From sequence record MW630116.1: a DNA stretch of 64,000 nucleotides; one strand, 5' to 3'. Under the pieces are notes generated by a model, which worked only from the letters and a program-made list of their open reading frames with translations, searched no databases and was not told the origin of the DNA. The position numbers and the translations under genes are program-made. The stretch is from Escherichia phage vB_EcoM-ZQ3. Positions 25,725 through 39,399 of the stretch are shown here, piece by piece. Each line of letters starts with the position of its first letter. Positions within the stretch are counted from its first letter, which is position 1.

Positions 25725-25800
25725 TTTAACAAAACAGTTTACATAAGGATGATGGCGTGTTACTATCATCCTATCAAATAAACGACCTCAAGGAAATAAA

Positions 25801-26088
25801 ATGAAAACCTATAAAGAATTTATATCACCTGTTGCTAACGTTTCTACTCTGACCGAAGCAACCCTTACTTCCGAAGTTATTAAAGCAAATAAAGGACGTG
25901 AGGGTAAACCAATGATTAGTCTGGTTGACGGCGAAGAAGTAAAAGGTACTGTTTACTTAGGGGATGGATGGTCTGCTAAGAAAGATGGCGCTACTATTGT
26001 TATCTCTCCGGCTGAAGAGACTGCACTGTTTAAAGCTAAGCATATTTCTGTAGCTCAGCTTAAAATTGTTGCAAAAACTCTTCTGTAA
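25801..26088 (+). CDS. Internal protein with capsid-targeting sequence (ipI position)
   Basis: N-terminal MKTYKEFI with L-x-E prohead-protease-type sites; 95 aa; follows 57B as ipI does in T4. Confidence 0.6.
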   Translation: MKTYKEFISPVANVSTLTEATLTSEVIKANKGREGKPMISLVDGEEVKGTVYLGDGWSAKKDGATIVISPAEETALFKAKHISVAQLKIVAKTLL

Positions 26089-26157
26089 GTAGTTTACATG
26101 CTGATAGGACTATGTTATAGTAGTCCTATCAAATCAACAACCAAACGGAAAAAACAA

Positions 26158-26421
26158 ATGAAAACGTATAAAGAATTTATCGCTGAATCTCAATCTTCTA
26201 CTCTGTCAGAGAACTACGAATCATTCTCTTACAACAACGACCATGCAATGTTCTACGACCGAAACATCGGTACTTATGTCCATGTGTGGGGTGTTAAAGA
26301 TGGTAACGTAGTTGTTAAGAAAAACTCTAAAGAAGGCAATGGTCGTGGCCAGGTAAAAATTACCAGCAAGAAAGCTATCCAAGCTTACGTCGATTATGTT
26401 AAACGCGAAGCTGGTATTTAA
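26158..26421 (+). CDS. Internal-protein-like gene with canonical capsid-targeting sequence MKTYKEFIAE
   Basis: 87 aa; own early-promoter cassette upstream; no T4 counterpart recognised. Confidence 0.55.
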   Translation: MKTYKEFIAESQSSTLSENYESFSYNNDHAMFYDRNIGTYVHVWGVKDGNVVVKKNSKEGNGRGQVKITSKKAIQAYVDYVKREAGI

Positions 26422-26483
26422 TAGTTTACATGATGATAGGACTATGTTATAGTAGTCCTATCAAAACATGAGAGGATAATAAA

Positions 26484-26669
26484 ATGAAACGCGCTGAACT
26501 GATTCGTAATGTTGCTGTAGTAATTGCTTCAATGGCTTTTAGTTTTTCGATGTTTGTAGGATTCATTTGTGGACTACTGACGACAACCGAAAACTCTATC
26601 TCATTGGTAGTGGCATTTCTAATCGGCTTAATCGCCATCGTTATGGATAAAATTGCAAAAGGTGAGTAA
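26484..26669 (+). CDS. Small hydrophobic (membrane) protein
   Basis: 61 aa, two hydrophobic helices; promoter cassette and GAGAGGA RBS upstream. Confidence 0.5.
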   Translation: MKRAELIRNVAVVIASMAFSFSMFVGFICGLLTTTENSISLVVAFLIGLIAIVMDKIAKGE

Positions 26670-26670
26670 A

Positions 26671-27033
26671 ATGAAATATCATGTATATGCTGATTTTGAA
26701 GCTAATCCTTCTAAAGACCCTGATTGTCGTTTGTTACGTGAACCGTTTGATTCAGCCACAGAAGCATGGCACTGGATTAAATCTAAATCACCCGGTTATA
26801 TGTTCTTTGAAGTAGTCGATGACAATGGTGCACTGCATCCAGCCCCTACGGAAACTATTAATTTCCTTCTGTTTGCTGGTTATGAATACTATCCTTATGG
26901 TGGTATCGACGACCTTTACGCTAAAGGTAAAACTGTCGAAGCTCTTCGTGAAATATATAAGAACGCTGAAGAAAATTTCGACTGGTACCATATTGTTAAT
27001 GCCCATACCTTTGAAGTGGTGGAACATTCATGA
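26671..27033 (+). CDS. Hypothetical protein
   Basis: ATG overlapping the upstream stop; 120 aa. Confidence 0.5.
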   Translation: MKYHVYADFEANPSKDPDCRLLREPFDSATEAWHWIKSKSPGYMFFEVVDDNGALHPAPTETINFLLFAGYEYYPYGGIDDLYAKGKTVEALREIYKNAEENFDWYHIVNAHTFEVVEHS

Positions 27034-27320
27034 TTCTTTATGCTAAAGTAAAATCTGTTGAGAATGGTTATGAAAGCGATCAGCAAGCAGCTAAAGCATT
27101 GGTCAATGATTACGGTATTTTGACTAACTTTGAAGTTGAAAAAGTTTACATCGACCGTTCATCTTCGCAGGTTAAATTACTCTGGGAAGACGGTAAATTT
27201 AATAGCGTGAATTTTGATTTCTTTATTGAAACAGAAAAAGGTCCTCTTGAATATGATATTTTCAAGAATCCTTTGAAATTACGTTGCATTGAATATAATT
27301 ACATTAATATGGTACGGTGA
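27030..27320 (+). CDS. Hypothetical protein
   Basis: 96 aa; ATGA overlap with the upstream gene. Confidence 0.45.
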   Translation: MILYAKVKSVENGYESDQQAAKALVNDYGILTNFEVEKVYIDRSSSQVKLLWEDGKFNSVNFDFFIETEKGPLEYDIFKNPLKLRCIEYNYINMVR

Positions 27321-27324
27321 GTAA

Positions 27325-27840
27325 ATGAATATTTGTTTAGGCAGTACAATTCCTAAGGGCTACGTAATTGATGTCACTACCTATGAAAATGATGGTGACA
27401 ACTATAAAACCAAAACATTGTTTGAAGTGGAAGAGCATGAGCTCCAACAGTTTAAATATCTCTTGAAGAAATTTAAGAGCCGTCATTCTAGCACTAAAGC
27501 CGAACGTTATTGCGGTAATACACCATTCAGTGATTGTTCGCTTTTAATCTATGAATACTTGGTTGAAGGACTGTTCTCAGACCAGCTTTATCCAGAATTC
27601 ATTAAAAAGGTCTTTGGTATCGAAGTTGACCTTGGTGACAAATCCGAAGAAGATGAAACACGTGTATTCGACCTATTCTTTGAGAGCGGAGATGAGATAT
27701 CTCAAGGACTTATTGATATTCTTGGCTATGCTTCTGAATACTATGATTACGATTTCTTGCGTGTAGTTGAACGTGTTGAATTCGCTTATATTGAAGAAGA
27801 AATTGTTTTGCCGACTGTTAAAATGATTGATTTGCTTTAA
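27325..27840 (+). CDS. Hypothetical acidic protein
   Basis: 171 aa; GTGAGTAA RBS-like sequence upstream. Confidence 0.5.
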   Translation: MNICLGSTIPKGYVIDVTTYENDGDNYKTKTLFEVEEHELQQFKYLLKKFKSRHSSTKAERYCGNTPFSDCSLLIYEYLVEGLFSDQLYPEFIKKVFGIEVDLGDKSEEDETRVFDLFFESGDEISQGLIDILGYASEYYDYDFLRVVERVEFAYIEEEIVLPTVKMIDLL

Positions 27841-27919
27841 GAATTATGTGTTATTATTAATTCATACCCTCTATTACCAAAGGTGCTCTAAAGTGCCTTT
27901 CATAATAGAAAGTTATTAA

Positions 27920-27994
27920 GGCCCTGTAGCTCAATGGGAGAGCTGTCAGCTCATAACTGATAGGTAGCTGGATCGAAACCAGCCAGGGTCACCA
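27920..27994 (+). tRNA. tRNA with CAU anticodon (Met, or Ile if lysidine-modified), CCA encoded
   Basis: Manual cloverleaf: acceptor GGCCCTG/CAGGGTC, D-stem GCTC/GAGC, anticodon loop CTCATAA, T-arm GCTGG-ATCGAAA-CCAGC, discriminator A, CCA. Confidence 0.8.
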
Positions 27995-28000
27995 AACAAA

Positions 28001-28072
28001 TGGTGCATCGTATAAAGGTTATTACGGGGAGCTGTTAACTCCTTTATCTTGGTTCGAGTCCAAGTGCGCCAG
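28001..28072 (+). tRNA. tRNA-Asn (GUU anticodon), no encoded CCA
   Basis: Acceptor TGGTGCA/TGCGCCA, anticodon stem GGGAG/CTCCT with loop CTGTTAA, T-arm CTTGG-TTCGAGT-CCAAG; 6 nt after the previous tRNA. Confidence 0.7.
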
Positions 28073-28117
28073 TAATTTAAACGAAGTAAATTAAGTGCTC
28101 TATCCAAATAATAAATA

Positions 28118-28136
28118 CTCCTATATTTTATAGGAG
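28118..28136 (+). promoter_or_regulatory. Hairpin sequestering the RBS of the downstream endonuclease gene
   Basis: Inverted repeat CTCCTATA-ttt-TATAGGAG; right arm is the SD 10 nt before the ATG at 28147. Confidence 0.5.
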
Positions 28137-28146
28137 ATAATTGGTA

Positions 28147-28812
28147 ATGAGCATTTGTAAACATTGTAATATGGAATTTGATATTTCTAATAAACCTAAA
28201 GGATGGATGGCTAACCACACTAGATGGTGTAAATCCAACCCTAAATTGGAATTGTATAAAGAAAGTTCTAAATCAGCCATTGCAGCAATGAATAAAGCAC
28301 GTATAGCTTCAGGTAATTTAAACCAGTATGTTGTATCTAAAAAGACTGGTGTCCCTGTAGTAATTTCGGAAGAGACTAGACAAAAATTGTCAGCCGCTTC
28401 ATTAGGTAGAGAACACTCTGAGGAATCTAGAATAAAAATATCTAATGCTCGGAAAAAATGGTTGAATGAAAACCCTGATAAACATCCTTGGAAGAAAAAT
28501 ACAAAATTTAAATCTGTGCCTTGTGAATTTTTGAAATCTAAATTAATAGAAAACGGAATTTCATTTATTGAAGAATACCAACCGGTTAAAAACCGAGCGT
28601 ATTGCACGGATATTGCTTTAATAGATAAAAAGATTATTATTGAAGTTAATGGAAACCAACATTACTCCAATCCTAAGAAAAAGATTTTGGCCCCTTATTA
28701 TAAAGAACGCCATGATATTATAAAATCATTAGGATGGGAAATATATGAACTTCATTATGCTGAAGTTTATAAAGAAGATATTGTAAATAATTTAATTGCC
28801 TCTATAGTGTAA
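28147..28812 (+). CDS. Putative free-standing homing endonuclease (N-terminal Cys/His motif, NUMOD3-like repeats, C-terminal Vsr/DUF559-like nuclease motif)
   Basis: CKHCN...HTRWC; ETRQKLSAASLGREHSEESRIKISNARKKW; C-terminal D..IIIEVNGNQHY..RHD...LGWEI; sits between tRNA genes and overlaps tRNA-Arg by 15 nt; no GIY-YIG motif. Confidence 0.6.
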   Translation: MSICKHCNMEFDISNKPKGWMANHTRWCKSNPKLELYKESSKSAIAAMNKARIASGNLNQYVVSKKTGVPVVISEETRQKLSAASLGREHSEESRIKISNARKKWLNENPDKHPWKKNTKFKSVPCEFLKSKLIENGISFIEEYQPVKNRAYCTDIALIDKKIIIEVNGNQHYSNPKKKILAPYYKERHDIIKSLGWEIYELHYAEVYKEDIVNNLIASIV

Positions 28813-28873
28813 TGGATAGCATATAATCGTTCTAAGGTTAATGGTGAGAGTTCAAATCTTTCTAGAGGCACCA
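28798..28873 (+). tRNA. tRNA-Arg (UCU anticodon), CCA encoded
   Basis: Acceptor GCCTCTA/TAGAGGC, D-stem GTGT/GCAT, anticodon loop GTTCTAA, T-arm GAGAG-TTCAAAT-CTTTC, discriminator A plus CCA. Confidence 0.8.
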
Positions 28874-28891
28874 ACTTTAAGTGAGGAAAAT

Positions 28892-29236
28892 ATGAAAGGC
28901 AATATTTATTTGGTAGTTCATGATTTAACGTTTTATTTTAACGAACAGGATACAGTTATTTCCGACCGGTTGATTAATTCGTTATATCAACACGCTGATT
29001 ACGTTTATTTTCAAAATGAATTCGGACATTGGAAGTTTCTTAAAAACCGTTCCGGGTTAACTAGTTTTGAATACTTTGACCGTAAAGACCTTTTAAACGA
29101 AATTCCATTACAACATCGGTTCCAGAAACGCGAATCACTATACTATTGTCGCCATATACCAAATGCTGAATGTGTTTATGAAGCGATTAATCTATGGCGT
29201 CGGCGTCGAGAGCAAATTGATGATATGCCAAAATAA
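28892..29236 (+). CDS. Hypothetical protein
   Basis: 114 aa from the ATG after GAGGAAAA immediately 3' of tRNA-Arg. Confidence 0.5.
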   Translation: MKGNIYLVVHDLTFYFNEQDTVISDRLINSLYQHADYVYFQNEFGHWKFLKNRSGLTSFEYFDRKDLLNEIPLQHRFQKRESLYYCRHIPNAECVYEAINLWRRRREQIDDMPK

Positions 29237-29546
29237 GAAGCCGGGTCGCTACCGGCAAGACGTCGGACTGATGTTCCCTGAGTAAGGATTGGTCTTAATA
29301 AATCTTTACGATTTGTTAATACCCCCTTACATCACAGCAGAAACGGCGCACAGAATTATCGATTCGAGGAAATATCTTTGCCGTAAGCCGAGTAGCGTTT
29401 TTGACGGAACGTTCGGATATGGTCGAGATATGGCCTTTTAAAAATATTGAGTAGCGTCAACTGCTTAATAACCGGGTTCGAATCCCGGCGTTTCGTACAA
29501 ACACTTACCTAGTAGGTGGAAACCCGACAAGGTTGCCGCAAGGCAT

Positions 29547-29575
29547 AGCCCCTTCCGAAAGGTTGGGGCTTTTTT
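29547..29575 (+). terminator. Rho-independent terminator
   Basis: AGCCCC...GGGGCT stem followed by TTTTT. Confidence 0.6.
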
Positions 29576-29576
29576 G

Positions 29577-29584
29577 TATAAATA
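29577..29584 (+). promoter_or_regulatory. Late promoter TATAAATA upstream of the 29620 internal-protein-like gene
   Basis: Exact consensus directly after the terminator, 35 nt upstream of the ATG. Confidence 0.5.
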
Positions 29585-29619
29585 TAGTAAACAATAAACC
29601 TACTTTCTAAGGACCATCA

Positions 29620-30240
29620 ATGTATACTTTTAATGAATTTTTAGCCGAAACGGAAGTAATCACCGAAGCCGGCGTACGTATGACAAAAGAGAAATGGCAA
29701 GCTGCTTACGATGCTATTTCTGGTACAAAAACTAGTACAGAGTTTTTCAAAAACGTTCAAGCCATGTACGGTATCGACACTTCTAGCCAAAAAGAATATT
29801 ACAGAGCTTCTAAAGCATTCAAAGATATTGTTAGTGGTGGTGTTTCTGCTAAATCGGGTTCGCCTAAAGTAAAACCTGCTCCTACCATTCCTAAACCTGC
29901 GACCCCTAAAGCAAAACCTGAGCCTAAGCCTGAAGTAAAAGCAACTCCTAAAGCTCCTGCTCTTAAGTTTGATACTTCTAGCCTGGAAAAAAAATATAAA
30001 CAACTATCTTCGCTTGTTCGTGATATTGAATCCGATACATCTTCACTCGTTCGTGAATTCAATATTCTTCGTAATGGCCAACATATCAACAACCTTGATA
30101 CTCCAGACCTTTATCGTCTTTATTTGACTATCGAAGGTTTGAAGTATACTCAACCACTTCACGATGCGATTAAAGAAAAACTTCGTCAGGCAGGTCGTTT
30201 GGCTGCTGACGCTGCTCAGTATGCAAAAACTCGTAAGTAA
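29620..30240 (+). CDS. Internal-protein-like gene with capsid-targeting-type N-terminus and Pro/Lys-rich linker
   Basis: MYTFNEFLAETE resembles the capsid-targeting peptide; low-complexity PKPATPKAKPEPKPEVKATPKAP region; 206 aa. Confidence 0.55.
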   Translation: MYTFNEFLAETEVITEAGVRMTKEKWQAAYDAISGTKTSTEFFKNVQAMYGIDTSSQKEYYRASKAFKDIVSGGVSAKSGSPKVKPAPTIPKPATPKAKPEPKPEVKATPKAPALKFDTSSLEKKYKQLSSLVRDIESDTSSLVREFNILRNGQHINNLDTPDLYRLYLTIEGLKYTQPLHDAIKEKLRQAGRLAADAAQYAKTRK

Positions 30241-30349
30241 AGAATGGGGACTTCGGTCCCCATTAGGGGGTCTATAACTTACTAAAAAAGTTGTTTACTT
30301 CTTCCCTAGTTGTGTTACTATAGTCCTATTAAAACATGAGGAGAATATT

Positions 30350-30853
30350 ATGAGTCTTTACACTGAACTGAATAAAAAATCTGAAGAATCCGCTGAAACT
30401 ATTTTTAAAAACGTGCAAAAGCGTATTTTAGAAAAGATGTATAACACTGCAGCTAAAGGTGAAAAATCTTGCCGGTTTCCGATGAGGTGTTCTTCCGATT
30501 TATGCGCAAATACTATTGAATGGCTGGAAAGTGAAGGTCTTACGGTAGAGAAAAACCCGGCGTCTTCTATTGACAGTGAATCATATATTAGTATTTCTTG
30601 GGATAAATCAAGGGTAGAAGAGAAAGATGGTGATTGGGTTGTAGATGTTAAAACTTCTGATGGCGGACGTTCTGTTGAAGTTTCAGCTGTAGTTAAAGGT
30701 ACCCACGAACAAAGGACTTGGGGTTGGGGTGGTGAAGAAAAAGAAATTGTTCTTAGTGTGATTGCCAGGTCAACTAGTAATAAAATTGCACAAAGCATCA
30801 TTGACGCTGCAATTGCTGAAGCAGAAAAAATTTGCAAAATTAAAAATAAATGA
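30350..30853 (+). CDS. Hypothetical protein
   Basis: 167 aa; promoter cassette upstream. Confidence 0.5.
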   Translation: MSLYTELNKKSEESAETIFKNVQKRILEKMYNTAAKGEKSCRFPMRCSSDLCANTIEWLESEGLTVEKNPASSIDSESYISISWDKSRVEEKDGDWVVDVKTSDGGRSVEVSAVVKGTHEQRTWGWGGEEKEIVLSVIARSTSNKIAQSIIDAAIAEAEKICKIKNK

Positions 30854-30911
30854 TGTACAAACGCCAAGGACGGTGTTACTATAGACCTATCAACTACAGA
30901 GGAGAAACAAA

Positions 30912-31139
30912 ATGGCTACAGTTAGTATTGATGTCGTTGATTATGAATACACCGAAGAAGTTATTCGCAGCCGTCACCCTGAAGTTCGTATCGATTCAGT
31001 CCAAGATTCCAAGTTTTGGACAACCGAGCTTAATCTGAGTGGTCCTTATGAAGCTGTTAAGAAGTTCATGGTTGAAGAATACTGCGAAGGCATGCACCCC
31101 GAAGACGCCGAGTTTTATGTCAATTTGATTAAAAAATAA
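30912..31139 (+). CDS. Hypothetical protein
   Basis: 75 aa; GGAGAAA RBS. Confidence 0.5.
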   Translation: MATVSIDVVDYEYTEEVIRSRHPEVRIDSVQDSKFWTTELNLSGPYEAVKKFMVEEYCEGMHPEDAEFYVNLIKK

Positions 31140-31211
31140 TTTACAAACTCTTGAGAGCAGAGTATAATGCTCTCATTGGATAATAAACACCACCAATTGA
31201 AAGGTAATAAT

Positions 31212-31805
31212 ATGAACACACTGAAGAAACTTGTTGAATTCATCCGCACTAAACTGGGTACTGCTATGGCTAAAAATCTGACTGTCGAAGAACAGTATAA
31301 CGCAGCTGCAGATAAGTTGATTACCCAAATCAAAGAACTAAAAACGGCTTCTGTTAAATCTATTAATGAAGAAAAACGTATTCGCGAACTTGTTATTGAA
31401 AAGAATAAGCAAGCCGCTTCTAAGGAACGTGAAATTCGTAAGCTCCTGGCTGAAGGACAAGATGTTACCATGCATGCTAAGCTTGGTCTTCTGTATCGTC
31501 GAACTGCCGAACAACTTAATACAAAAGCTGACGGGTACGCTGCTATGCGAATTGAAATTGCTCGTAAGGTGGTTGAACTTGACGATGCTCGTCAGAATCT
31601 GGCAATCAAACTCGAATACATTCGTGAAACTCGAGCAGCTAATGCCCTTGGTATCTCTACGGCTGATGATGTAATTGAAATCGCTGCACTAACTAAGGTT
31701 GATATCGAAGACACTCTGACTCGTGTTGAAACGTTCAATGGCACACCAGCTGGTGTCGAAACCACTTCTGCTGATGTACAAGAATATATTAACTCTTTGA
31801 AATAA
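31212..31805 (+). CDS. Hypothetical coiled-coil protein
   Basis: 197 aa; heptad-rich; promoter cassette upstream. Confidence 0.5.
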
Positions 31806-31813
31806 AATAATAC

Positions 31814-31835
31814 GGAGGACTCCGGTCCTCCTTTT
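31814..31835 (+). terminator. Rho-independent terminator
   Basis: GGAGGAC-TCCG-GTCCTCC then TTTT. Confidence 0.55.
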
Positions 31836-31854
31836 GGATAATAAAGGAGTTAAC

Positions 31855-32277
31855 ATGCGAAACCAAAATAATGATATTGACTCAATGTTCGAAGAGTTCC
31901 GAAATAAGGTAAATCCACCTACGTCTTTAGTTGATTCATTACGATATGTTGCAACTGGACGTAAATGGTACTGGTCGTCTTCTTATGAGACAACTGAATA
32001 TGCAAATAACCGAAAATCTTTATTAGCCCCAGGTATTATGATTCATGATATCGGAGCTATTGCTAAACTAGTTGCGGACCATGATATTAGATTCACTGAT
32101 TTCGTTGCTCCTACGTGGTCTGTTTGTTGTTTAAACACTGAATGGGACTATATCAGTGAACGCTCTGAAGATTATTATGGTTTTAGAGATAAGCTCTTAA
32201 GGTCTAACATGTTTTATATCGATACTGAAGTTCTAGTCGATAATAAAATATTACTTTACGTTAATCGTCGATTCTGA
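31855..32277 (+). CDS. Hypothetical protein
   Basis: 140 aa from ATG after AGGAG. Confidence 0.5.
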   Translation: MRNQNNDIDSMFEEFRNKVNPPTSLVDSLRYVATGRKWYWSSSYETTEYANNRKSLLAPGIMIHDIGAIAKLVADHDIRFTDFVAPTWSVCCLNTEWDYISERSEDYYGFRDKLLRSNMFYIDTEVLVDNKILLYVNRRF

Positions 32278-32417
32278 AACTATGTATGAAGGCAAGCCTT
32301 TGCTTAAAAGAGTTGATGCTTTAAGTGCTATTGATGCGCTTTATGAAACCATGGTTGTTAGTCCTAATTTCACTAACAATTTAATCCTTGAGCAATTTAT
32401 TATGGAATGTAGAGAAT

Positions 32418-33043: not shown

Positions 33044-33148
33044 CAAGAAAAATAAAAAGGTTTACGCTTCTCAAATGATTAGTTATAATGAACTCCTAGC
33101 TAGACGTGAAAATGAAACAATAGAAAACTTTATTAAGGAATGTAGAAA

Positions 33149-33454
33149 ATGAGTAAGATTATTGAAATTAAAGTACCAGAGTTTAATGATGCTAAATCCG
33201 CTTCAGATGCAATTTATAAACTTCTGAATCAAGCTGAACGTATCGAAGAAGAAGCAACAAAGATCGCAGACCAATATGCCGTATCATTTTCTGTAGGTGA
33301 TTATGGTAGTGGTCGTACTTATTATCCTAAGGGTGAAATTGTATCCCAGTGGATGAAAGATGAAATTGAAAATAATGGTGGTGATGTTAAACGTGAAGGT
33401 AATGGTTACGTTATTACTGAAGGTGCTTGGGTTTCGTCTTCTTCGATGTGCTAA
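33149..33454 (+). CDS. Small protein, member 1 of a tandem paralogous triplet (C-terminal GAWVSSSSMC)
   Basis: 101 aa; shares the helical N-terminus and C-terminal G-W-[VI]-[SA]-S-S-x-x-C tail with the next two ORFs. Confidence 0.55.
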   Translation: MSKIIEIKVPEFNDAKSASDAIYKLLNQAERIEEEATKIADQYAVSFSVGDYGSGRTYYPKGEIVSQWMKDEIENNGGDVKREGNGYVITEGAWVSSSSMC

Positions 33455-33463
33455 GGAATCATT

Positions 33464-33736
33464 ATGTCTAAAGAACAAACCGAACTGGCTGAAGCCGTAG
33501 CAAAAATCTATGCAGCTATTGAGGCTGCCAAAGAAATTGCTGATAAACAAAACACAACATTCGACTTGTATCCGGCTTATGGTATGGGTGGAACCTATCA
33601 TTCACCCGGACAACTTAAAGCCGATCTTGAACGTTGTACAAAAAACGGCTATGCTGAATGGGCTGACGTTTACCAATACGACTACAACCTGAGCCTCGAA
33701 ACTGGTGGTTGGATTGCATCTTCTCATACTTGCTAA
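33464..33736 (+). CDS. Small protein, member 2 of the triplet (C-terminal GGWIASSHTC)
   Basis: 90 aa; similar intergenic spacer gctaaggaa..atg. Confidence 0.55.
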   Translation: MSKEQTELAEAVAKIYAAIEAAKEIADKQNTTFDLYPAYGMGGTYHSPGQLKADLERCTKNGYAEWADVYQYDYNLSLETGGWIASSHTC

Positions 33737-33745
33737 GGAAACCAT

Positions 33746-33943
33746 ATGTCTCGTGAATTAGATTGTGCTGTACGTACCGCAGTAGCTGCTCTGGAAAACC
33801 TGTTCCAAATTGCAACAGAAGAACGCGAAGAAGTTACATTGTGGATTGAAGATAACGCAGGTCTGAATCTCCAGGACGCGATCTCATTATCCAATAATAG
33901 CATTACTGTTCAAGGCTGGGTATCATCTAGTTATTCTTGCTAA
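33746..33943 (+). CDS. Small protein, member 3 of the triplet (C-terminal QGWVSSSYSC)
   Basis: 65 aa. Confidence 0.55.
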   Translation: MSRELDCAVRTAVAALENLFQIATEEREEVTLWIEDNAGLNLQDAISLSNNSITVQGWVSSSYSC

Positions 33944-34005
33944 AACAGTTTACAACAAGATAGGGCTATGTTATAGTAGTCCTATCAAATTAAATGGAGT
34001 CCACA

Positions 34006-34245
34006 ATGATTTATTACGAAAGTATCGGAACCAAAGTGGTTGGTAAAACCATTACTCGTGAAAAGTTTGCAAAGATATTCGATATGCGTTATAAAAAATC
34101 TGAACACAAAGGCATCCGATTCGAAGATGCACATTGTACAATTTGCCCTTATAATGAAGATATAAATGGTACAATCGTTCCATTGGTAGAGGCTTCACAT
34201 GACGACCTCTGGGATGAATATAATATCGCATGTCGCGAAATTTAA
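34006..34245 (+). CDS. Hypothetical protein
   Basis: ATGGAG...ATG arrangement: the first ATG supplies GGAG as SD for the second; 79 aa. Confidence 0.45.
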   Translation: MIYYESIGTKVVGKTITREKFAKIFDMRYKKSEHKGIRFEDAHCTICPYNEDINGTIVPLVEASHDDLWDEYNIACREI

Positions 34246-34270
34246 GTAATCTAAATTCGAGGAAATTATT

Positions 34271-35227
34271 ATGATGTTAGTTATTGGTTCTCGTGCACTT
34301 CACTATCACGGTCTTATTGATTCTAACGCTATCAAAAATAGTGACTGGGACTTTATTGCAGACCAAGGTTCTTGGAATGCATTCAAAAATCAAATGATGG
34401 GTGTATATGTTCATCAAGATAACCCTGATGTCCAAGTTTTCAAATGCTTCCATAACGGACGCGAAACTCATTTTGAAGCATATATTGTTCCGGCAATCAC
34501 TAATGTCCGTGAACTAGTCGGTGAACTCACTCCTGAAGATTTCACGTCTTCTTATGACCTTTTAAAATACGCCAAGAAAAATTTGACTAAAGACCGTTTG
34601 AACGGGTTTTACTGGGCAACTCCTGAGATGTGCCTTGCAATTAAGATGTCTCATCGTTTCAAGAAAAATAATCCATTCTTTTTAAAGACTATGAACCATA
34701 TTCAGTATCTTCGTGGTAAAGGTGTTAAACTGAATGATGAACTTACTGAAATTATGCTGAAACGTCAGAAAGAAACCTTGAACTATGCTCACCCAGTTCT
34801 TGACACTTCTAAAAGTGCGTTCTTTAAAGATGACATCTATACATATGACCATGATACTATTCATGAAGCCATTGCACTAACAGACCGTCCAGCATATACA
34901 TTTTATATGAAAGACGGTTCTGAAGTCATGACCTCACGCGAGAAGTTCGAATCGTTACCAGAAATGGTCAAATTGGCCGGTGTATATGAAGAATCATGTG
35001 TACTAGCATTAGAACGTTCTCAGATTCCTAATGGCTTTGAAATCCATCCTCGTGATAGTTTTATGATGGCATTAGAAAAGGTCTGTACTTCAATCACATC
35101 AGGCTGGTTCCGTGAGTATGCCTGGGAGAACTACAGCAAAGTAGTAAGTATGTACCAAAGCTTAGGACATGATGATTACGTCAAACGTTTCAAACAAAAT
35201 TTCCATATGGTAAAACCTTTCAAATAA
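34271..35227 (+). CDS. Hypothetical protein, possible nucleotidyltransferase fold (weak)
   Basis: 318 aa; N-terminal IGSRAL...SDWDF loosely fits the G[GS]...D-x-D signature but with longer spacing than usual. Confidence 0.45.
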   Translation: MMLVIGSRALHYHGLIDSNAIKNSDWDFIADQGSWNAFKNQMMGVYVHQDNPDVQVFKCFHNGRETHFEAYIVPAITNVRELVGELTPEDFTSSYDLLKYAKKNLTKDRLNGFYWATPEMCLAIKMSHRFKKNNPFFLKTMNHIQYLRGKGVKLNDELTEIMLKRQKETLNYAHPVLDTSKSAFFKDDIYTYDHDTIHEAIALTDRPAYTFYMKDGSEVMTSREKFESLPEMVKLAGVYEESCVLALERSQIPNGFEIHPRDSFMMALEKVCTSITSGWFREYAWENYSKVVSMYQSLGHDDYVKRFKQNFHMVKPFK

Positions 35228-35306
35228 TTTCACCAAACTGTTTACAAGGTCTGTAGTTGTTGATACTATAGACCTATCAAAACAAATGAGTGAATGGAGA
35301 TACAAA

Positions 35307-35507
35307 ATGACTACTTTGAATAAACGTTTCGGTAAAGCTAAACCTGGCTGTGCAGCAGAACGTCGTTACATTTTCGCTCAGTTAGAAGATGTAGAGTATC
35401 AGATTAATCAAGTTCACATTACTGGCATCGAGCCTATGTGTGGCCTTGAAGCTCTTCGTGAAGTTCGTGACGGGTATCGTCGTGATATCGAAGAAATGTC
35501 AAAATAA
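35307..35507 (+). CDS. Hypothetical protein
   Basis: 66 aa from the second ATG of an ATGGAG...ATG arrangement. Confidence 0.45.
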   Translation: MTTLNKRFGKAKPGCAAERRYIFAQLEDVEYQINQVHITGIEPMCGLEALREVRDGYRRDIEEMSK

Positions 35508-35565
35508 GTGTACAAACTGATAGGGCTATGTTATAGTAGTCCTATTAAAACATGAGGAGAATAAT

Positions 35566-35871
35566 ATGAAATTAACAGAAACCAACCGAATTGGCCTTTT
35601 AACGATACTTACATCACCTTTTTATGCTGTGCTTTCTGTTGCAGTATTACAAAAGGCCTATGGCATGGACGGTGTTCCTGGTTGTGTATTTTTATCACCG
35701 TTTTTGTTATTAGTTGGTGCTCTGTTATTATACGCGACAACAGGTTTCGACCATAATGTTTGGGTCAAGTTTAAACGTAGATTAACTGAAGAAGAACACG
35801 CTGAAGCTCGTAAAAAAGCTATTGAATCTACCAATCTAGAAAATTTCATTAAAGAATGTCGAGGAAAATAA
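35566..35871 (+). CDS. Predicted membrane protein ending in the NFIKECR module
   Basis: 101 aa with two hydrophobic helices; C-terminal ...LENFIKECRGK. Confidence 0.5.
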   Translation: MKLTETNRIGLLTILTSPFYAVLSVAVLQKAYGMDGVPGCVFLSPFLLLVGALLLYATTGFDHNVWVKFKRRLTEEEHAEARKKAIESTNLENFIKECRGK

Positions 35872-35872
35872 T

Positions 35873-36559
35873 ATGAATAGTTCTAAAGTGTTTAATAGTC
35901 AAGCTCGTGCAGTAGGTGGTTTTGCTCATGCGATTAAAAATGACCAGATTAAAAACGAGCCTATGTTCTTCAACTGTAGTTTAGAATTTGCTTATAATAA
36001 CGGTGGTCCTATTACTCGCAGCTTCATCATGAACTTGCCTGATGATTGGAACACCGACCAGGTTGTATTTGATTCACGGGTCCACATGCTGATGCCTGGT
36101 TGGTACCCTGCTATCCCGGGTTATCACCATGATGATGTACCACGCCCGGATATTCCGGTTGGTCAACACTTTATTACTGCAGGACAACCTGATTATGACA
36201 ATCCTCGCTATTTGTCTGAACATATTCTTGGTCTTGTTAACGCTGATGTGTGTCCTACTCATTTTGCAACAGGAACTGCAGAGTTCAGTCAGATTCCTGA
36301 TGGCGAACTTATCTATCGCCAGTGGCACAAAGAAGTCCTCGAAAAAATTGAAAAAGGTGAACTAGAGAAATGGGAAGCTCCAGATCGTACTCTTCTTCAG
36401 TTTGATTGGCAAACATGGCACACTGGTTCTCGTGCAATTAGTAATGGATGGCGTTGGTTCGGACGTGTATCTCGTAATACAGACCGAGTTAAAAAGATTA
36501 CCAATGAAATTCGTGTCAATGCTCAAGTTTATCTGGAATTCCCTATGGAAGGCTGGTAA
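35873..36559 (+). CDS. Hypothetical protein
   Basis: 228 aa; His/Asp-rich segment (HHDDVP); no family assigned. Confidence 0.5.
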   Translation: MNSSKVFNSQARAVGGFAHAIKNDQIKNEPMFFNCSLEFAYNNGGPITRSFIMNLPDDWNTDQVVFDSRVHMLMPGWYPAIPGYHHDDVPRPDIPVGQHFITAGQPDYDNPRYLSEHILGLVNADVCPTHFATGTAEFSQIPDGELIYRQWHKEVLEKIEKGELEKWEAPDRTLLQFDWQTWHTGSRAISNGWRWFGRVSRNTDRVKKITNEIRVNAQVYLEFPMEGW

Positions 36560-36652
36560 TGATTAACAAAACATATTGGTCTTAATATAGACGATGGCAA
36601 CGAAGGTATTTCATACTATTCAGTAGATTGGACAGGATGTCCATCCTACTTA

Positions 36653-36964
36653 GTGAAACATATTTGCCAAGAATTTAAAATCGACCAGCCAGCAGGTATT
36701 ATCGTGAACAGATACATTAATGGATATCAACCTATCGATGAAGTAATACGAACAACTCAAGCTGAGCTTGAAAAGTTTTTCAATAAGTGCCAATGGATAA
36801 CAGGATGGATTATATTTGTACCGTCTATATGGTTTTTCAGTACTAAGGTGAGTTCTTTCGGTTTTGTTGATATTATTGCTATCTTATTAGCATCTAGTAT
36901 CATAAGTGTTGTTGGTGGCATCATTGGCGGCGGTACCGCCGCCATCATTATTAAATCTTATTAA
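36653..36964 (+). CDS. Predicted membrane protein with C-terminal glycine zipper; start codon uncertain
   Basis: ORF has no in-frame ATG (GTG at 36653); C-terminal VVGGIIGGGTAAIII. Confidence 0.35.
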   Translation: MKHICQEFKIDQPAGIIVNRYINGYQPIDEVIRTTQAELEKFFNKCQWITGWIIFVPSIWFFSTKVSSFGFVDIIAILLASSIISVVGGIIGGGTAAIIIKSY

Positions 36965-37048
36965 AAGTAGTTTACAAGAACATAAAGCCAAGATAAAGGC
37001 CAAGAATAATGAAGTTGAACGTTTTATTACCGAATGCAGGAATTTGAG

Positions 37049-37285
37049 ATGAGTATAGCAATTTACATTAAATCAGAATCATGTGATAGTTATCTGTACA
37101 CATACGATAAAGACGTGTCAGAAGAAAAAATCAAAGACGATCTTAATATGGACCTTGATATGTTCTGTCCTATTGCAGATTACAAACTTGCGGTCTCTAA
37201 TAGTGAAAGTCCATCTAAAGAAACGCGCATTGAAGAATTTATGTCCGAATTAATGGCTAAATCATGGGACCGAGATGATGAGTAA
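37049..37285 (+). CDS. Hypothetical acidic protein
   Basis: 78 aa; ATG overlaps the stop of a short upstream reading frame. Confidence 0.45.
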   Translation: MSIAIYIKSESCDSYLYTYDKDVSEEKIKDDLNMDLDMFCPIADYKLAVSNSESPSKETRIEEFMSELMAKSWDRDDE

Positions 37286-37732
37286 GAAAAATAAAGTGAA
37301 AGAACTATCAGCCGGTATTATTTTCCTTACCGAAGATAAAGAATTATTCATGGGGCGTGTAACTGGTTCTCGTCCTAAAGGTTCTTTAGCTCATCGGTGG
37401 GATATTCCTAAAGGACGTGTCGAGCCCGCCGAATCTCCTATTGAAGCCGCTATTCGCGAATGCGAAGAAGAAACTGGGTTTACACAATATGACCTGCCTT
37501 CCTGAAAGACCTAGGTGAACATCATTACTCAGACAATAAGAATATTCATCTGTTCCTATATACCATCCCTGTAGAGCACGAGCAATTCAGAAACAGTGTT
37601 TGTAATTCCTATCATACATTCCCAGACGGACGACAGATTCCTGAATTTGATGCATTCGCTTTAATTAAACCTTCTCAATGGGAATATGTAATGGGCAAAT
37701 CATTATATAAGGTGCTCACTACCCTCCTATAA
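37275..37732 (+). pseudogene. nudE: Nudix hydrolase (nudE / e.1 homolog) split by a -1 frameshift
   Basis: Frame A 37275..37505 carries the Nudix box GRVEPAESPIEAAIRECEEETG then stops; the homolog continues in the -1 frame 37499..37732 (LKDLGEHHYSD...); summed length about 153 aa, like T4 NudE. Confidence 0.6.
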
Positions 37733-37740
37733 GTAATAAA

Positions 37741-37764
37741 TACCTCCTATAAACGTGGGAGGTA
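37741..37764 (+). promoter_or_regulatory. Hairpin spanning the RBS of gene e with an internal late-promoter-like element
   Basis: TACCTCC-tataaacgtg-GGAGGTA; right arm is the e SD; loop holds TATAAACG (6/8 to TATAAATA); matches the arrangement described for T4 gene e. Confidence 0.5.
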
Positions 37765-37766
37765 TT

Positions 37767-38255
37767 ATGAATATATTTGAAATGCTTCGTAATGACGAAG
37801 GTCTTAGACTGACTTTATACAAAGACACCGAAGGCTTTTGGACGATTGGCATAGGCCATTTAGTAACAAAGAACCCGTCTTTAGCCGTAGCTAAAGCTGA
37901 ACTTGACAGAATGATCGGTCGTAAATGCAACGGTACAATTACCCTTGATGAGGCTGAAAAGCTATTTAATGAAGACGTTGATAAAGCCGTTCGCGGAATC
38001 TTGGGTAATGCTAAACTTAAACCGGTATATGATTCTTTAGATGCAGTTCGTCGATGTGCATTGGTCAATATGGTCTTCCAAATGGGTGTAGCAGGCGTCG
38101 CAGGTTTTACTAATTCTCTTCGTATGCTTCAACAGAAACGTTGGGATGAAGCGGCAGTAAATCTAGCCCAATCTAAATGGTATCGTCAGACACCTAATCG
38201 CGCGAAACGCGTAATCTCAACATTTAAAACAGGAACTTGGAAAGCGTATATATGA
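37767..38255 (+). CDS. e: Endolysin (T4 lysozyme, gene e)
   Basis: 162 aa; [32 protein letters not shown]... near-identical to T4 lysozyme. Confidence 0.95.
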
Positions 38256-38533
38256 AAACATATAGTGAATTTTTATCAGAATCTATTCTTAACGAAGCTA
38301 CTGACACATTTGCAACTAAGCTAGGTGCAGCTTTGGTTGAAGCTGAAAGTCTATTAGCACGTATTTCTGAACTTGCTAGTAAGATAGATACTCGCAAATT
38401 TGAGCGCACCAGTGATATCGTTAAGCTTGAAGCCTTGTTGCGTATGTGTGATAAACCGGAAGAAATCGCTAAGAACGGCTCGCTGATGAAACAACGTCTT
38501 GAAAAATATATTTCAGGCGCTTCAGAAAAATAG
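38252..38533 (+). CDS. Internal-protein-like gene with capsid-targeting sequence [10 protein letters not shown]
   Basis: 93 aa; ATGA overlap with the e stop; position of ipIII/ipII in T4. Confidence 0.6.
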
Positions 38534-38591
38534 TGTTTACTTCCTCCAAGGGTTTTGATACTATACATTCATCAACTACTTGGAGGAAATT

Positions 38592-39005
38592 ATGACTCGT
38601 ATCAATTTAACACTTGTTTCTGAACTGACCGACCAACATCTTATGGCTGAGTATCGTGAATTACCACGCGTATTTGGTGCAGTCCGTAAACATGTTCAAA
38701 ACGGTAAACGTGTAAAGGATTTTAAAATCTCCCCGACATTTATCTTAGGCACAGGTCATGTAACATTCTTTTACGACAAACTCGAATTTTTACGTTTACG
38801 TCAAATCGAGCTAATCGCTGAATGCTTGAAACGTGGTTTCAAAATCAAGGACACGACTGTCCAAGATATTTCCGACATCCCTGCCGAATTTCGTAATAAT
38901 TATGTCCCGTCCGAAGCGTCCATTGCGATAAGTCAAGCACGCTTAGACGAAAAAATTGCTCAACGTCCTACTTGGTACAAATACTATGGTAAATCAATTT
39001 ACTAA
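38592..39005 (+). CDS. denV: Endonuclease V, pyrimidine-dimer DNA glycosylase (denV)
   Basis: 137 aa; [35 protein letters not shown]... near-identical to T4 endonuclease V. Confidence 0.95.
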
Positions 39006-39096
39006 GGAAAAAGGTTGCGATGGTAAAGCTTAAACAGTTTACGCTTAAGTATTAATATGGTATAATTACTCTATCAAAACAAACAAGGAAACAAAA

Positions 39097-39399
39097 ATGA
39101 AAACATATCAAGAATTTATTACTGAAGCGCGAGTGAGTGCAGGTAAATTAGAAGCCGCTATAAATAAAAAGGCCCATTCATTTCACGATTTGTCCGATAA
39201 AGACCGTAAGAAACTTGTAAGCCTTTATATTGACAAAGAGCGTATTCTCGCTCTTCCTGGCGCTAATGAAGGTAAACAGGCCAAGCCTTTGAATGCTGTT
39301 GAAAAGAAAATTGATAACTTTGCTTCTAAATTCGGTATGTCTATGGATGACCTTCAGCAAGCGGCTATCGAAGCAGCTAAAGTAATTAAAGGTAAATAA
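39097..39399 (+). CDS. Internal-protein-like gene with capsid-targeting sequence MKTYQEFITE
   Basis: 100 aa; canonical capsid-targeting peptide; promoter cassette upstream. Confidence 0.6.
   Translation: MKTYQEFITEARVSAGKLEAAINKKAHSFHDLSDKDRKKLVSLYIDKERILALPGANEGKQAKPLNAVEKKIDNFASKFGMSMDDLQQAAIEAAKVIKGK

What the first reader, a model, noticed from the sequence alone, without database searches (positions are those of the whole stretch)
25801..39399. Five genes carry the T4 capsid-targeting N-terminal peptide, two more than T4's three internal proteins
ORFs starting at 25801, 26158, 29620, 38252 and 39097 all begin with MKTY[KQS]EF[IL]xE (29620 has the variant MYTFNEFLAE), followed by unrelated bodies of 87-206 aa. 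In T4 this decapeptide directs ipI, ipII and ipIII into the prohead, is cleaved by the prohead protease, and the proteins are injected with the DNA; IPI counters a type IV restriction system. The copies at 26158 and 29620 have no T4 counterpart that I recognise. The 29620 copy sits behind a terminator and a TATAAATA late promoter and has a Pro/Lys-rich linker. Injected, hypervariable proteins are prime anti-defence effector candidates.
Basis: partly seen in the sequence, partly recalled or inferred. Interest (0 to 1): 0.7.

Follow-up and report, generated by a model that had tools for sequence, protein, structure and literature searches.

The report
Five internal-protein genes in RB69-like phage
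This RB69-like T-even phage carries five genes whose products start with the peptide that loads proteins into the phage head for injection; three are known internal proteins and two are unannotated new members, which is normal for this kind of phage.

Summary
Exactly five ORFs in the 64-kb window start with M[KY]T[YF]xEF[IL] (shuffles give about 0.01). The similarity is confined to the first 30 coding bases, and the bodies are unrelated.

The window is a Mosigvirus (RB69/JS09-like). 25801 is IPI (87% to T4 IPI) and 39097 is IPII (93%). 38252 is the RB69p127 "internal head protein", not IPIII, which is absent.

Variable sets of leader-bearing internal proteins have been known in T-even phages since 1994. 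RB69 has five such genes and the relative mar007P3 has six, so "two more than T4" is ordinary.

The two extras are "hypothetical" in every database.
- **26158** is a 332-bp cassette between two 96%-identical promoter/stem-loop repeats. Its ipI-like 18-codon leader is fused to a small protein that Dhakaviruses encode leaderless at another locus.
- **29620** belongs to a small family held in one conserved slot in at least six T4-like genera. That slot lies after the rnaD/rnaC terminator, behind its own late promoter. The protein has a leader, a helical domain, a Pro/Lys spacer and a C-domain that is sometimes exchanged.

Packaging, cleavage, injection and anti-defence activity are inferred, not shown. 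Verdict: new members of a known kind, moderate interest.

The parts
25735..25781 (+). Early promoter plus stem-loop (PeSL-type) upstream of ipI
   Evidence: GTTTACA-N17-TACTAT with an embedded inverted repeat. It is the third, 64%-identical copy of repeat family D1.
25801..26088 (+). ipI orthologue. Predicted LTE|A cleavage after residue 19 gives a 76-aa IPI*.
   Evidence: Pfam IPI_T4 PF11634, E 3e-50, covering residues 20-95. 87% identical to T4 IPI and 99% to RB69 IPI. Cleavage site.
26090..26136 (+). Left copy of the 47-nt PeSL repeat that brackets the 26158 cassette
   Evidence: Repeat family D1, reference copy. RB69 and mar007P3 carry a single copy at this position.
26158..26421 (+). Unannotated internal-protein candidate. 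The leader is codons 1-18 (26158-26211; IAE|S and LSE|N sites). The body (about 69 aa, pI 9.4) is homologous to a leaderless Dhakavirus early protein.
   Evidence: phrog_13302 profile starts at residue 16. (only two clusters among 5.8 billion proteins)... (dN/dS 0.17).
26422..26468 (+). Right copy of the PeSL repeat (96% identical). It also serves as promoter for the downstream tRNA.4-like gene.
29233..29497 (+). Homologues of T4 stable RNAs rnaD (29233-29352, 87%) and rnaC (29359-29497, 99%), ending the tRNA operon
   Evidence: blastn against the annotated T4 rnaC and rnaD. No Rfam family matches.
29547..29576 (+). Intrinsic terminator of the tRNA/rnaD/rnaC operon
   Evidence: Hairpin of -16 kcal/mol followed by T6. 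The same element follows rnaC in T4.
29577..29584 (+). T4-type late promoter TATAAATA, 43 nt upstream of the 29620 ATG
   Evidence: Conserved exactly (35-43 nt from the ATG) or with one mismatch in JS98, PG7, CHI14, Kosakonia 305 and Marfa. T4 has no such sequence at this position.
29620..30240 (+). Unannotated leader-bearing late protein (phrog_2280 family). Leader MYTFNEFLAE|TEVITE|A; helical N-domain (residues about 17-73); Pro/Lys/Ala spacer (74-113); three-helix C-domain (114-206).
30243..30264 (+). Hairpin immediately downstream of the 29620 stop codon
   Evidence: AATGGGGACTTCGGTCCCCATT, -15.5 kcal/mol.
38252..38533 (+). Internal head protein of the RB69p127 family (not IPIII). Its ATG overlaps the stop codon of lysozyme gene e.
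   Evidence: phrog_3499 'internal head protein', E 1e-46. 92% identical to RB69p127. ATGA overlap with e. Found in 496 phage records.
39037..39066 (+). Strong early promoter (GTTTACG-N17-TATAAT) for ipII
39097..39399 (+). ipII orthologue. Predicted ITE|A cleavage after residue 10 gives a 90-aa basic protein.
   Evidence: 93% identical to T4 IPII. phrog_7857, E 4.5e-55.. Here it lies after denV, whereas in T4 it lies before denV.

Best explanation
The window comes from an RB69/JS09-like T-even phage (genus Mosigvirus). The five ORFs are its set of internal-protein (Ip) genes.

From established T4 biology, the N-terminal decapeptide (capsid-targeting sequence, CTS) docks the protein onto the scaffolding core of the prohead. 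The prohead protease gp21 then cuts after Glu in an (L/I)xE motif. The mature protein stays in the head with the DNA and is injected with it, where known Ips block type IV restriction enzymes.

Three of the five are known families: IPI (25801), IPII (39097) and the RB69p127 internal head protein (38252).

The other two are unannotated members of the same kind.

**26158** is a 332-bp cassette bounded by two near-identical early-promoter/stem-loop repeats (PeSL). An ipI-like leader (RBS, CTS and a second cleavage site) has been fused to a complete small early protein, which Dhakaviruses encode without a leader at another locus. A cytoplasmic early protein has most likely been turned into an injected one.

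**29620** is a late-promoter-driven protein kept at one conserved slot, directly after the tRNA/rnaD/rnaC terminator, in at least six T4-like genera. It has its own leader variant, a conserved helical N-domain, a Pro/Lys spacer and a C-terminal helical domain that is replaced in some relatives.

- **Shown here:** the sequence anatomy, the homologies, synteny, the repeat-bounded insertion and purifying selection.
- **Inferred:** packaging, cleavage positions, injection, and any anti-defence target for 26158, 29620 and 38252.
For: **Identity of the phage.** 95-96% nucleotide identity to Mosigvirus genomes.

**The motif.**
- Exactly five hits in six frames, against about 0.01 expected.
- Similarity is limited to the translated decapeptide.
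- All five keep an aromatic residue at position 4, Phe at position 7, and an (L/I)xE site at 8-10 or 17-19. These are the positions that Mullaney and Black's mutagenesis linked to targeting (4, 7) and processing (8, 10), as summarised in PMC9026906.

**Known families.** Pfam and PHROG assignments; 87%, 93% and 92% identity to T4 IPI, T4 IPII and RB69p127.

**26158.**
- 47-nt repeats that are 96% identical flank the gene.
- RB69 and mar007P3 have one repeat and no gene at the same site.
- The 5' end is homologous to the ipI 5' end at the DNA level through the second cleavage site.
- The body is 63% identical to the leaderless 73-aa AnYang ORF188. That gene sits next to gene 39 behind an early promoter, with in-frame stops upstream.
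- Homology begins at the predicted LSE|N cut. dN/dS is 0.17.

**29620.**
- The JS98 orthologue has the canonical MKTYNEFLNESVLNEA leader.
- The leader pattern and a second (L/I)xE|[AS] site persist down to about 30% identity.
- The late promoter and the upstream hairpin are conserved in other genera.
- The slot is syntenic.
- The leader does not resemble the N-termini of gp67, gp68, gp21 or gp22.
- RB69 carries a divergent allele with a leader in the same slot.
- Two relatives carry unrelated C-domains.

**Literature.**
- Ips are a diverse set of defence proteins that share only the CTS (PMC3012670).
- Ip1, Ip2 and Ip3 each inhibit a distinct GmrSD (PMC12373910).
- IPIII is needed on strain ECOR17 and works without its CTS when expressed in the cell (bioRxiv 10.1101/2022.04.14.488369).
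- The leader-bearing Bas37_0260 inhibits McrBC (bioRxiv 10.1101/2025.11.20.689424).
- PeSL-mediated cassette exchange has been described, and similar observations were made earlier at the IP locus (PMC4122927).
Against: - I found no virion proteomics or N-terminal sequencing for either new family in the searchable literature.
- The 29620 leader differs from the canonical one at positions 2-3. In PG7 the classical Ip slots keep MKTY while this family has MLNF, so its targeting efficiency is untested.
- The 29620 C-domain is conserved across genera, unlike the fast-evolving, narrowly specific known Ips.
- No structural or sequence homologue gives a function: Foldseek against PDB has best E 1.2, the PDB profile search has 0 hits, and Pfam and NCBIfam give nothing.
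- The 26158 structure model is unusable (pLDDT 44).
- gp21 and gp22 lie outside the window, so the cognate machinery is assumed from relatives.
- The direction of the leader event (gain in Mosigvirus or loss in Dhakavirus) is not proven.
Confidence: 0.7

Rival explanations
1. 29620 is packaged, but it is a structural or DNA-associated head-internal component (a core accessory or charge-neutralising protein) rather than an injected anti-defence effector.
For: - It has only a late promoter, unlike the other four, which sit behind early promoters or are coupled to e.
- The mature protein is basic (pI 9.7, 34 K+R) with a Lys/Pro-rich spacer.
- The N-domain is under strong purifying selection (dN/dS 0.07), and the C-domain is conserved across at least six genera at a fixed slot.
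- It is all-helical, as scaffold-like proteins are.
- Lysines of internal proteins contact DNA phosphates in T4 heads (PMC3012670).
Against: - T4 and other Tequatroviruses lack it, so it is dispensable for head assembly.
- RB69 carries a divergent, apparently frameshifted allele.
- Two relatives have unrelated C-domains, a pattern more typical of exchangeable effectors.
- The leader is Ip-type, not gp67/gp68-type.
Confidence: 0.3
2. The N-terminal motif of 29620 and/or 26158 is a vestige or a coincidence. These proteins act only in the cytoplasm and are not loaded into heads.
For: - There is no direct evidence of encapsidation.
- 29620 departs from MKTY at positions 2-3.
- 26158 has a leaderless homologue that evidently works without packaging.
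- IPIII works without its CTS when expressed in the cell (bioRxiv 10.1101/2022.04.14.488369).
Against: - The positions that matter for targeting and processing (4, 7, 8, 10) are kept in every family member down to about 30% identity.
- A second cleavage site is kept as well.
- dN/dS of the 29620 leader is 0.22.
- The CTS alone is sufficient to package foreign proteins in T4 (PMC9026906, PMC3012670).
- Chance occurrence is about 0.01 per window.
- In 26158 the junction falls exactly at a predicted cleavage site.
Confidence: 0.12
3. 26158 is a non-functional by-product of recombination between promoter repeats: a chimeric ORF in transit.
For: It is rare (35 of about 1000 related phage records, and two protein clusters in 5.8 billion sequences). 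It is flanked by repeats that promote insertion and excision.
Against: - The ORF is intact and 95-100% identical in 28 independent genomes.
- The body is under purifying selection against the Dhakavirus homologue (dN/dS 0.17).
- It has its own promoter and RBS.
- The fusion is in frame and leaves a complete domain after the cleavage site.
Confidence: 0.08

Closest known systems
T4 IPI (Pfam PF11634, inhibitor of the GmrSD type IV restriction enzyme)
   Same: 25801 is its orthologue: 87% identical, the same 95-aa length, the same locus after 57B, and the same LTE/ITE|A site at residue 19. RB69 IPI, 99% identical to the window copy, is reported to protect RB69 from GmrSD (PMC6024577).
   Different: A few substitutions only. 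Specificity towards GmrSD variants is untested.
T4 IPII (Ip2, inhibitor of the ECOR21 GmrSD/BrxU-type enzyme; PMC12373910)
   Same: 39097 is 93% identical over its full length, with the same leader and cleavage site.
   Different: It lies downstream of denV rather than between ipIII and denV.
T4 IPIII (Ip3)
   Same: Only the leader peptide is shared.
   Different: The IPIII body is absent from the window. 29620 is similar in size and charge but is not homologous. It is also not a replacement, because JS98 has both.
RB69 'internal head proteins' RB69p125, p127 and p156, and the extra Ips of Repoila et al. 1994
   Same: The same principle: a shared leader on unrelated small bodies, at the 57B-tRNA.4 and e-denV-vs.8 loci. 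38252 is RB69p127 (92% identical).
   Different: The window lacks p125 and p156. Instead it has 26158 in the slot downstream of ipI. I could not read Repoila 1994 to compare its Ip4 and later sequences.
Bas37_0260, a leader-bearing McrBC inhibitor at the ipI locus (bioRxiv 10.1101/2025.11.20.689424)
   Same: An extra gene at the ipI locus with the packaging leader and a body unrelated to IPI-III. This is a precedent for new Ips being type IV restriction inhibitors.
   Different: I did not retrieve its sequence. The 26158 body found homologues only in Mosigvirus and Dhakavirus records, so homology is unlikely. No function is known for 26158.
PeSL (early promoter/stem-loop) cassettes of T4-like phages (Arbiol 2010; Comeau 2014, PMC4122927)
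   Same: 26158 is flanked by two 96%-identical promoter/stem-loop repeats, and relatives have one repeat at the empty site. This is the architecture proposed for mini-circle insertion and excision.
   Different: Here the cassette also carries an ipI-derived leader fused to the cargo, so two recombination steps are implied. The stem-loop overlaps the spacer and -10 region rather than lying upstream of the promoter.
T4 prohead core proteins gp67, gp68 and gp22 (also cut by gp21)
   Same: They are late-expressed and cut by the same protease.
   Different: There is no similarity in leader or body. Those proteins are acidic or scaffold-type and are core genes, whereas the 29620 family is accessory.

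Membership tests
T4-type internal proteins (leader/CTS-bearing, gp21-processed, injected) | N-terminal decapeptide of the MKTYQEFIAE type, with an aromatic residue at position 4 and Phe at position 7 (the targeting determinants) | tested here: met
   All five ORFs meet it. 29620 has F4, as T4 IPI itself does. The determinants are as summarised in PMC9026906.
T4-type internal proteins (leader/CTS-bearing, gp21-processed, injected) | gp21 cleavage motif (L/I)xE at residues 8-10, or within the first 20 or so residues | tested here: met
   IAE10 and LSE18 (26158); LAE10 and ITE16 (29620); LSE10 and LNE15 (38252); ITE10 (39097); LTE19 (25801).
T4-type internal proteins (leader/CTS-bearing, gp21-processed, injected) | Similarity between members confined to the leader, with unrelated bodies | tested here: met
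   All-against-all BLASTP and the nucleotide identity profile.
T4-type internal proteins (leader/CTS-bearing, gp21-processed, injected) | Location in the known variable Ip loci (57B to tRNA.4; e to denV to vs.8) | tested here: inconclusive
   Met for 25801, 26158, 38252 and 39097. 29620 sits in a different but conserved slot after rnaC.
T4-type internal proteins (leader/CTS-bearing, gp21-processed, injected) | Cognate prohead protease gp21 and scaffold gp22 encoded by the same phage | not testable with these tools
   The window ends within the late-gene block (largest ORFs) and does not reach genes 21-22. These are core genes of all T4 relatives (PMC9026906).
T4-type internal proteins (leader/CTS-bearing, gp21-processed, injected) | Physical presence in virions in N-terminally processed form | not testable with these tools
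   I found no proteomic data for phrog_2280 or phrog_13302 members.
T4-type internal proteins (leader/CTS-bearing, gp21-processed, injected) | Injection with the DNA and inhibition of a host defence | not testable with these tools
   Known only for Ip1-3 and Bas37_0260 (PMC12373910; bioRxiv 10.1101/2025.11.20.689424).
IPI_T4 (PF11634) | Match to the family profile above the curated cut-off | tested here: met
   25801 scores 168.4 bits against a cut-off of 25, covering profile positions 1-76 of 76.
IPIII | Homology of the mature body to T4 IPIII | tested here: not met
   tblastn of T4 IPIII against the window matches only leader peptides. 38252 and 29620 are unrelated to it.
PeSL-bounded mobile cassette | Gene flanked by direct repeats of an early promoter plus stem-loop, with a single repeat at the empty site in close relatives | tested here: met
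   Repeats at 26090-26136 and 26422-26468 are 96% identical. The -35/-10 hexamers are present with 17-nt spacing. mar007P3 and RB69 have one copy and no gene.

The most novel reading that the evidence does not exclude
Two claims together.

1. The 29620 family is an unrecognised class of modular injected protein in T4-like phages. It is built as packaging leader, conserved adaptor domain, rigid Pro/Lys spacer and exchangeable C-terminal module. It is kept at a fixed late-transcribed slot in at least six genera and acts on a target other than the GmrSD enzymes hit by Ip1-3.
2. 26158 records a recent natural conversion of a cytoplasmic early protein into an injected one, by capture of the ipI leader.
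Probability: 0.3. Interest if true: 0.6.

Novelty: new member of a known kind. Interest (0 to 1): 0.4.

Why it matters
Injected internal proteins act before any phage gene is expressed. Every one characterised so far (Ip1, Ip2, Ip3, Bas37_0260) disables a type IV restriction enzyme. Each new leader-bearing family is therefore a ready candidate anti-defence factor and a possible host-range determinant for therapeutic T-even phages.

The two unannotated families here can be tested directly with existing isolates.

- **26158:** the pairing of a leader-bearing and a leaderless homologue offers a natural experiment on what pre-loading a protein into the virion adds.
- **29620:** this family would widen the Ip concept. 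It goes beyond short hypervariable proteins at two hotspots to a conserved, two-domain, late-only protein at a third locus.

The principle itself is long known, so the gain is incremental.

Tried and rejected
1. **Leader 'dialect' tracking the phage genus.** Rejected. In PG7 the classical Ip slots keep MKTYQEF/MKTYNEF while the 29620-family member has MLNFKEFITES, so the variant is specific to the family.
2. **29620 as a replacement for IPIII.** Rejected. JS98 has both, and the Mosigvirus AV112 has IPIII.
3. **Fold-based function for 29620.** The model has pLDDT 70 and is all-helical. Foldseek against PDB gives a best E of 1.2 (generic helical hairpins), BFVD returns only family members, and the PDB profile search has 0 hits. 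The afdb50 library was unavailable.
4. **Structure of 26158.** pLDDT 44, too poor to search with.
5. **Family libraries for the two new proteins.** Pfam and NCBIfam give nothing significant, and PHROGs gives only 'unknown function' families. Pfam also gives nothing for distant 29620 relatives.
6. **Resemblance of the 29620 leader to gp67, gp68, gp21 or gp22.** None found.
7. **Virion mass-spectrometry evidence in the literature.** Not found. Repoila 1994 and Zuber 2007 are not held in the library. Petrov 2010 does not discuss Ips.
8. **Rfam match for the RNA region upstream of 29620.** Only tRNAs matched. The rnaC and rnaD identities came from direct comparison with T4.

Full report
**Observation**

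- 25801-26088: 95 aa, MKTYKEFISP...
- 26158-26421: 87 aa, MKTYKEFIAE...
- 29620-30240: 206 aa, MYTFNEFLAE...
- 38252-38533: 93 aa, [10 protein letters not shown]...
- 39097-39399: 100 aa, MKTYQEFITE...

A six-frame scan of all 64 kb finds these five and nothing else, with both a strict and a loose pattern. 200 shuffles average 0.01 hits. All-against-all BLASTP finds similarity only in the first 10-25 residues.

At the DNA level the first 30 coding bases are 63-87% identical between pairs. The 40 bases upstream are 25-42% identical and the next 30 bases 17-33%. Thr3 uses all four synonymous codons. The conserved unit is therefore the translated peptide.

One correction: 25801 has Pro at position 10. 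Its only leader cleavage motif is LTE|A at residue 19. T4 IPI is arranged the same way: it also lacks Glu at position 10 and has ITE at residues 17-19.

**What phage this is**

The region is 95-96% identical at the nucleotide level to Mosigvirus genomes such as NHEP29, AV117, JS09, HX01 and mar005P1.

The gene order in the window is 1, 57A, 57B, ipI, 26158, tRNA.4-.2, tRNA-Met, tRNA-Asn, a homing-endonuclease-like ORF, tRNA-Arg, rnaD, rnaC, 29620, the e.x genes, nudE, e, 38252, denV, 39097.

**Three known families**
- **25801** is IPI: Pfam IPI_T4 at E 3e-50, 87% identical to T4 IPI and 99% to RB69 IPI.
- **39097** is IPII: 93% identical to T4 IPII, phrog_7857. It lies after denV, whereas in T4 it lies before denV.
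- **38252** is not IPIII. It is the RB69p127 'internal head protein' (92% identical, phrog_3499).

The IPIII body is absent from the window.

**How unusual is five?**

It is not unusual.
- The RB69 reference annotates four internal head or virion proteins (p125, p127, p155, p156). It also has an unflagged fifth leader-bearing gene, ORF149c.
- mar007P3, which is 95% identical to the window, has six.
- The literature already states that T-even phages carry many Ips recognised by the shared leader: 'at least 10' in PMC12373910, citing Repoila 1994. [quoted passage not shown]

Counts among 50,697 phage records show a patchy, mosaic distribution:

| Family | Records |
|---|---|
| IPI | 291 |
| IPII | 197 |
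| IPIII | 261 |
| 38252 family | 496 |
| 29620 family | 143 |
| 26158 | 35 |

**ORF 26158**

Every one of the 35 records calls it hypothetical or leaves it unannotated. Its PHROG family (13302, unknown function) aligns only from residue 16 onward. A search of 5.8 billion proteins finds just two clusters: the 87-aa Mosigvirus form and a 73-aa Dhakavirus form.

The Dhakavirus form (AnYang ORF188) begins MKTLNINSFFYN... and has no leader. It has in-frame stops upstream and lies behind an early promoter next to gene 39, which is a different locus.

Homology starts at the predicted second cleavage site of the window protein (LSE|N19) and runs to the C-terminus, at 63% identity and dN/dS 0.17.

The 5' end of 26158 (promoter/stem-loop, RBS, the first ten codons and the TCTACTCTG.C.GA segment encoding the second cleavage site) is homologous at the DNA level to the 5' end of the adjacent ipI (families D1, D3, D4).

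The gene is bracketed by 47-nt early-promoter/stem-loop repeats at 26090-26136 and 26422-26468, which are 96% identical. RB69 and mar007P3 have one repeat and no gene at exactly this place. This is the PeSL cassette architecture of Arbiol 2010 and Comeau 2014. Those authors noted that similar observations had been made at the IP locus by Repoila 1994 (PMC4122927).

The most economical reading is that a small early protein was fused to an ipI-type leader and now moves as a 332-bp cassette. The direction of the event (leader gain or leader loss) is inferred from the local DNA homology to ipI and is not proven.

**ORF 29620**

The 143 phage records with a match call it hypothetical wherever it is annotated, in the rows listed. 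Its PHROG family (2280) has unknown function.

*Context.* Upstream lie homologues of the T4 stable RNAs rnaD (87%) and rnaC (99%). The same hairpin terminator that follows rnaC in T4 comes next (29547-29576, -16 kcal/mol). TATAAATA lies at 29577, 43 nt before the ATG. T4 has the terminator but neither the promoter nor the gene.

*Synteny.* The slot is the same in JS98 (Dhakavirus), CHI14 (Winklervirus), Kosakonia 305 (Kanagawavirus), Marfa (Marfavirus) and PG7 (Karamvirus). In each the gene follows the last tRNA and a hairpin. The late promoter is exact in JS98 and PG7 and has one mismatch in the other three.

*Leader.* The leaders are MKTYNEFLNESVLNE|A (JS98), MLKFKEFISE|A, MLNFNEFITES..VTE|A, MLKFKDILTE|S and MLNFKEFITES..ITE|A. 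Position 4 is always aromatic. Position 7 is Phe, or Ile in the Marfa-type members. Positions 8-10 are always (L/I)xE. This holds in members as distant as about 30% identity.

The variant is specific to the family and not to the genus, because PG7's classical Ip slots keep MKTY. It does not resemble the N-termini of gp67, gp68, gp21 or gp22.

*Architecture and size of the family.* The AlphaFold model (pLDDT 70) shows helices at 23-71, a disordered Pro/Lys/Ala stretch at 74-111, and a three-helix C-domain at 120-204 with pLDDT 83-90.

Against JS98, dN/dS is 0.07 for the N-domain, 0.22 for the leader and 0.79 for the spacer.

A profile search of 1.84 billion representative proteins finds only 15 hits, some of them fragments. 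Two of them (P0026, P0029) match only the leader, N-domain and spacer and carry unrelated C-termini. Both come from T4-like contigs.

RB69 carries a divergent allele in the same slot: MKTYAEFLTEA..., 30% identical over 101 aa, split by a frameshift into ORF149c and ORF148c.

*Function.* No function could be inferred from fold or sequence.

**Mechanism, and what rests on what**

*Established for T4* (PMC9026906, PMC3012670):
- The first ten residues of IPIII suffice to load foreign proteins into proheads.
- Residues 4 and 7 matter for targeting, and residues 8 and 10 for cleavage.
- The cleaved proteins are injected with the DNA.

*Established for function:*
- Ip1, Ip2 and Ip3 each inhibit one GmrSD subtype (PMC12373910).
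- IPIII is needed on strain ECOR17.
- Bas37_0260 inhibits McrBC.
- RB69 IPI is reported to protect RB69 against GmrSD (PMC6024577).

*Shown here:* all five ORFs satisfy the sequence requirements. Two of them are new families, and their evolutionary behaviour indicates selection on the leader: cassette mobility, leader capture, a conserved slot, allele replacement and C-domain exchange.

*Inferred:* that 26158 and 29620 are actually encapsidated, cut at the predicted sites, injected, and act against host defences. For 29620 a head-internal structural or DNA-associated role is a serious alternative, which I put at about 0.3.

**Expression signals**
- ipI, 26158 and ipII sit behind T4-type early promoters.
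- 38252 overlaps the stop codon of e (ATGA). It probably shares e's transcripts. Upstream of e are one-mismatch versions of the two exact late promoters that T4 has there.
- An exact TATAAATA inside gene 1 (24677) could give late read-through into 57A, 57B, ipI and 26158.
- 29620 is the only one of the five with an exact late promoter just upstream and no recognisable early promoter.

**Verdict**

The phenomenon is known, and the two extra genes are unannotated new members of it, with some instructive evolutionary detail. Interest is moderate (0.4).

Noticed in passing
window 29233-29497: Homologues of the T4 stable RNAs rnaD (87% identical) and rnaC (99% identical, far above the surrounding protein-coding similarity to T4). 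Their function is still unknown, and no Rfam family covers them.
   Followed up: partly
window 28141-28812: A homing-endonuclease-like ORF (weak NUMOD3, DUF559 and RAP hits; phrog_9084) lies between tRNA-Asn and tRNA-Arg, and its 3' end overlaps the start of tRNA-Arg. RB69 and mar007P3 have no ORF in the tRNA cluster. The position recalls segB in T4.
   Followed up: partly
window 33149-33943: Three tandem small paralogues (101, 90 and 65 aa) all end in the motif GW[VI][SA]SSxxC directly before the stop codon. They fall in phrog_899 and phrog_4882, both of unknown function.
   Followed up: partly
L007 (RB69 NC_004928) 15429-15991, minus strand: RB69 ORF149c and ORF148c look like one leader-bearing gene split by a frameshift (a sequencing error or a real pseudogene). 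It is a divergent allele of the 29620 family and is not annotated as an internal protein.
   Followed up: partly
L007 (RB69) 6923-7204 compared with window 38252-38300: RB69p127 has a degenerate leader (MKTYMNFYQNLSLNEA) where the window has [16 protein letters not shown]. The rest of the protein is essentially identical, so the RB69 copy may be poorly packaged.
   Followed up: no
window 25735-26468, 38534-38590, 39400-39460: Nearly every intergenic gap in this region carries a GTTTAC-N17-TA..AT early promoter with an embedded inverted repeat (PeSL-like). This fits a hyperplastic region built from exchangeable cassettes.
   Followed up: partly
window 37728-37742: Upstream of lysozyme gene e the window has TATAAGTA and AATAAATA, where T4 has two exact TATAAATA late promoters. 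Late expression of e and the coupled 38252 may therefore differ from T4.
   Followed up: no
L001 (mar007P3) 14316-14570: The deposited start of this ORF (MYQEFIIE...) appears to be truncated by two codons relative to RB69p125 (MKMYQEFIIE...), which hides its leader from annotation.
   Followed up: no
window 26098-26421: The mechanical ORF call starts 60 nt upstream of the true ATG, inside the promoter repeat. GenBank relatives and the leader motif support the 26158 start.
   Followed up: yes
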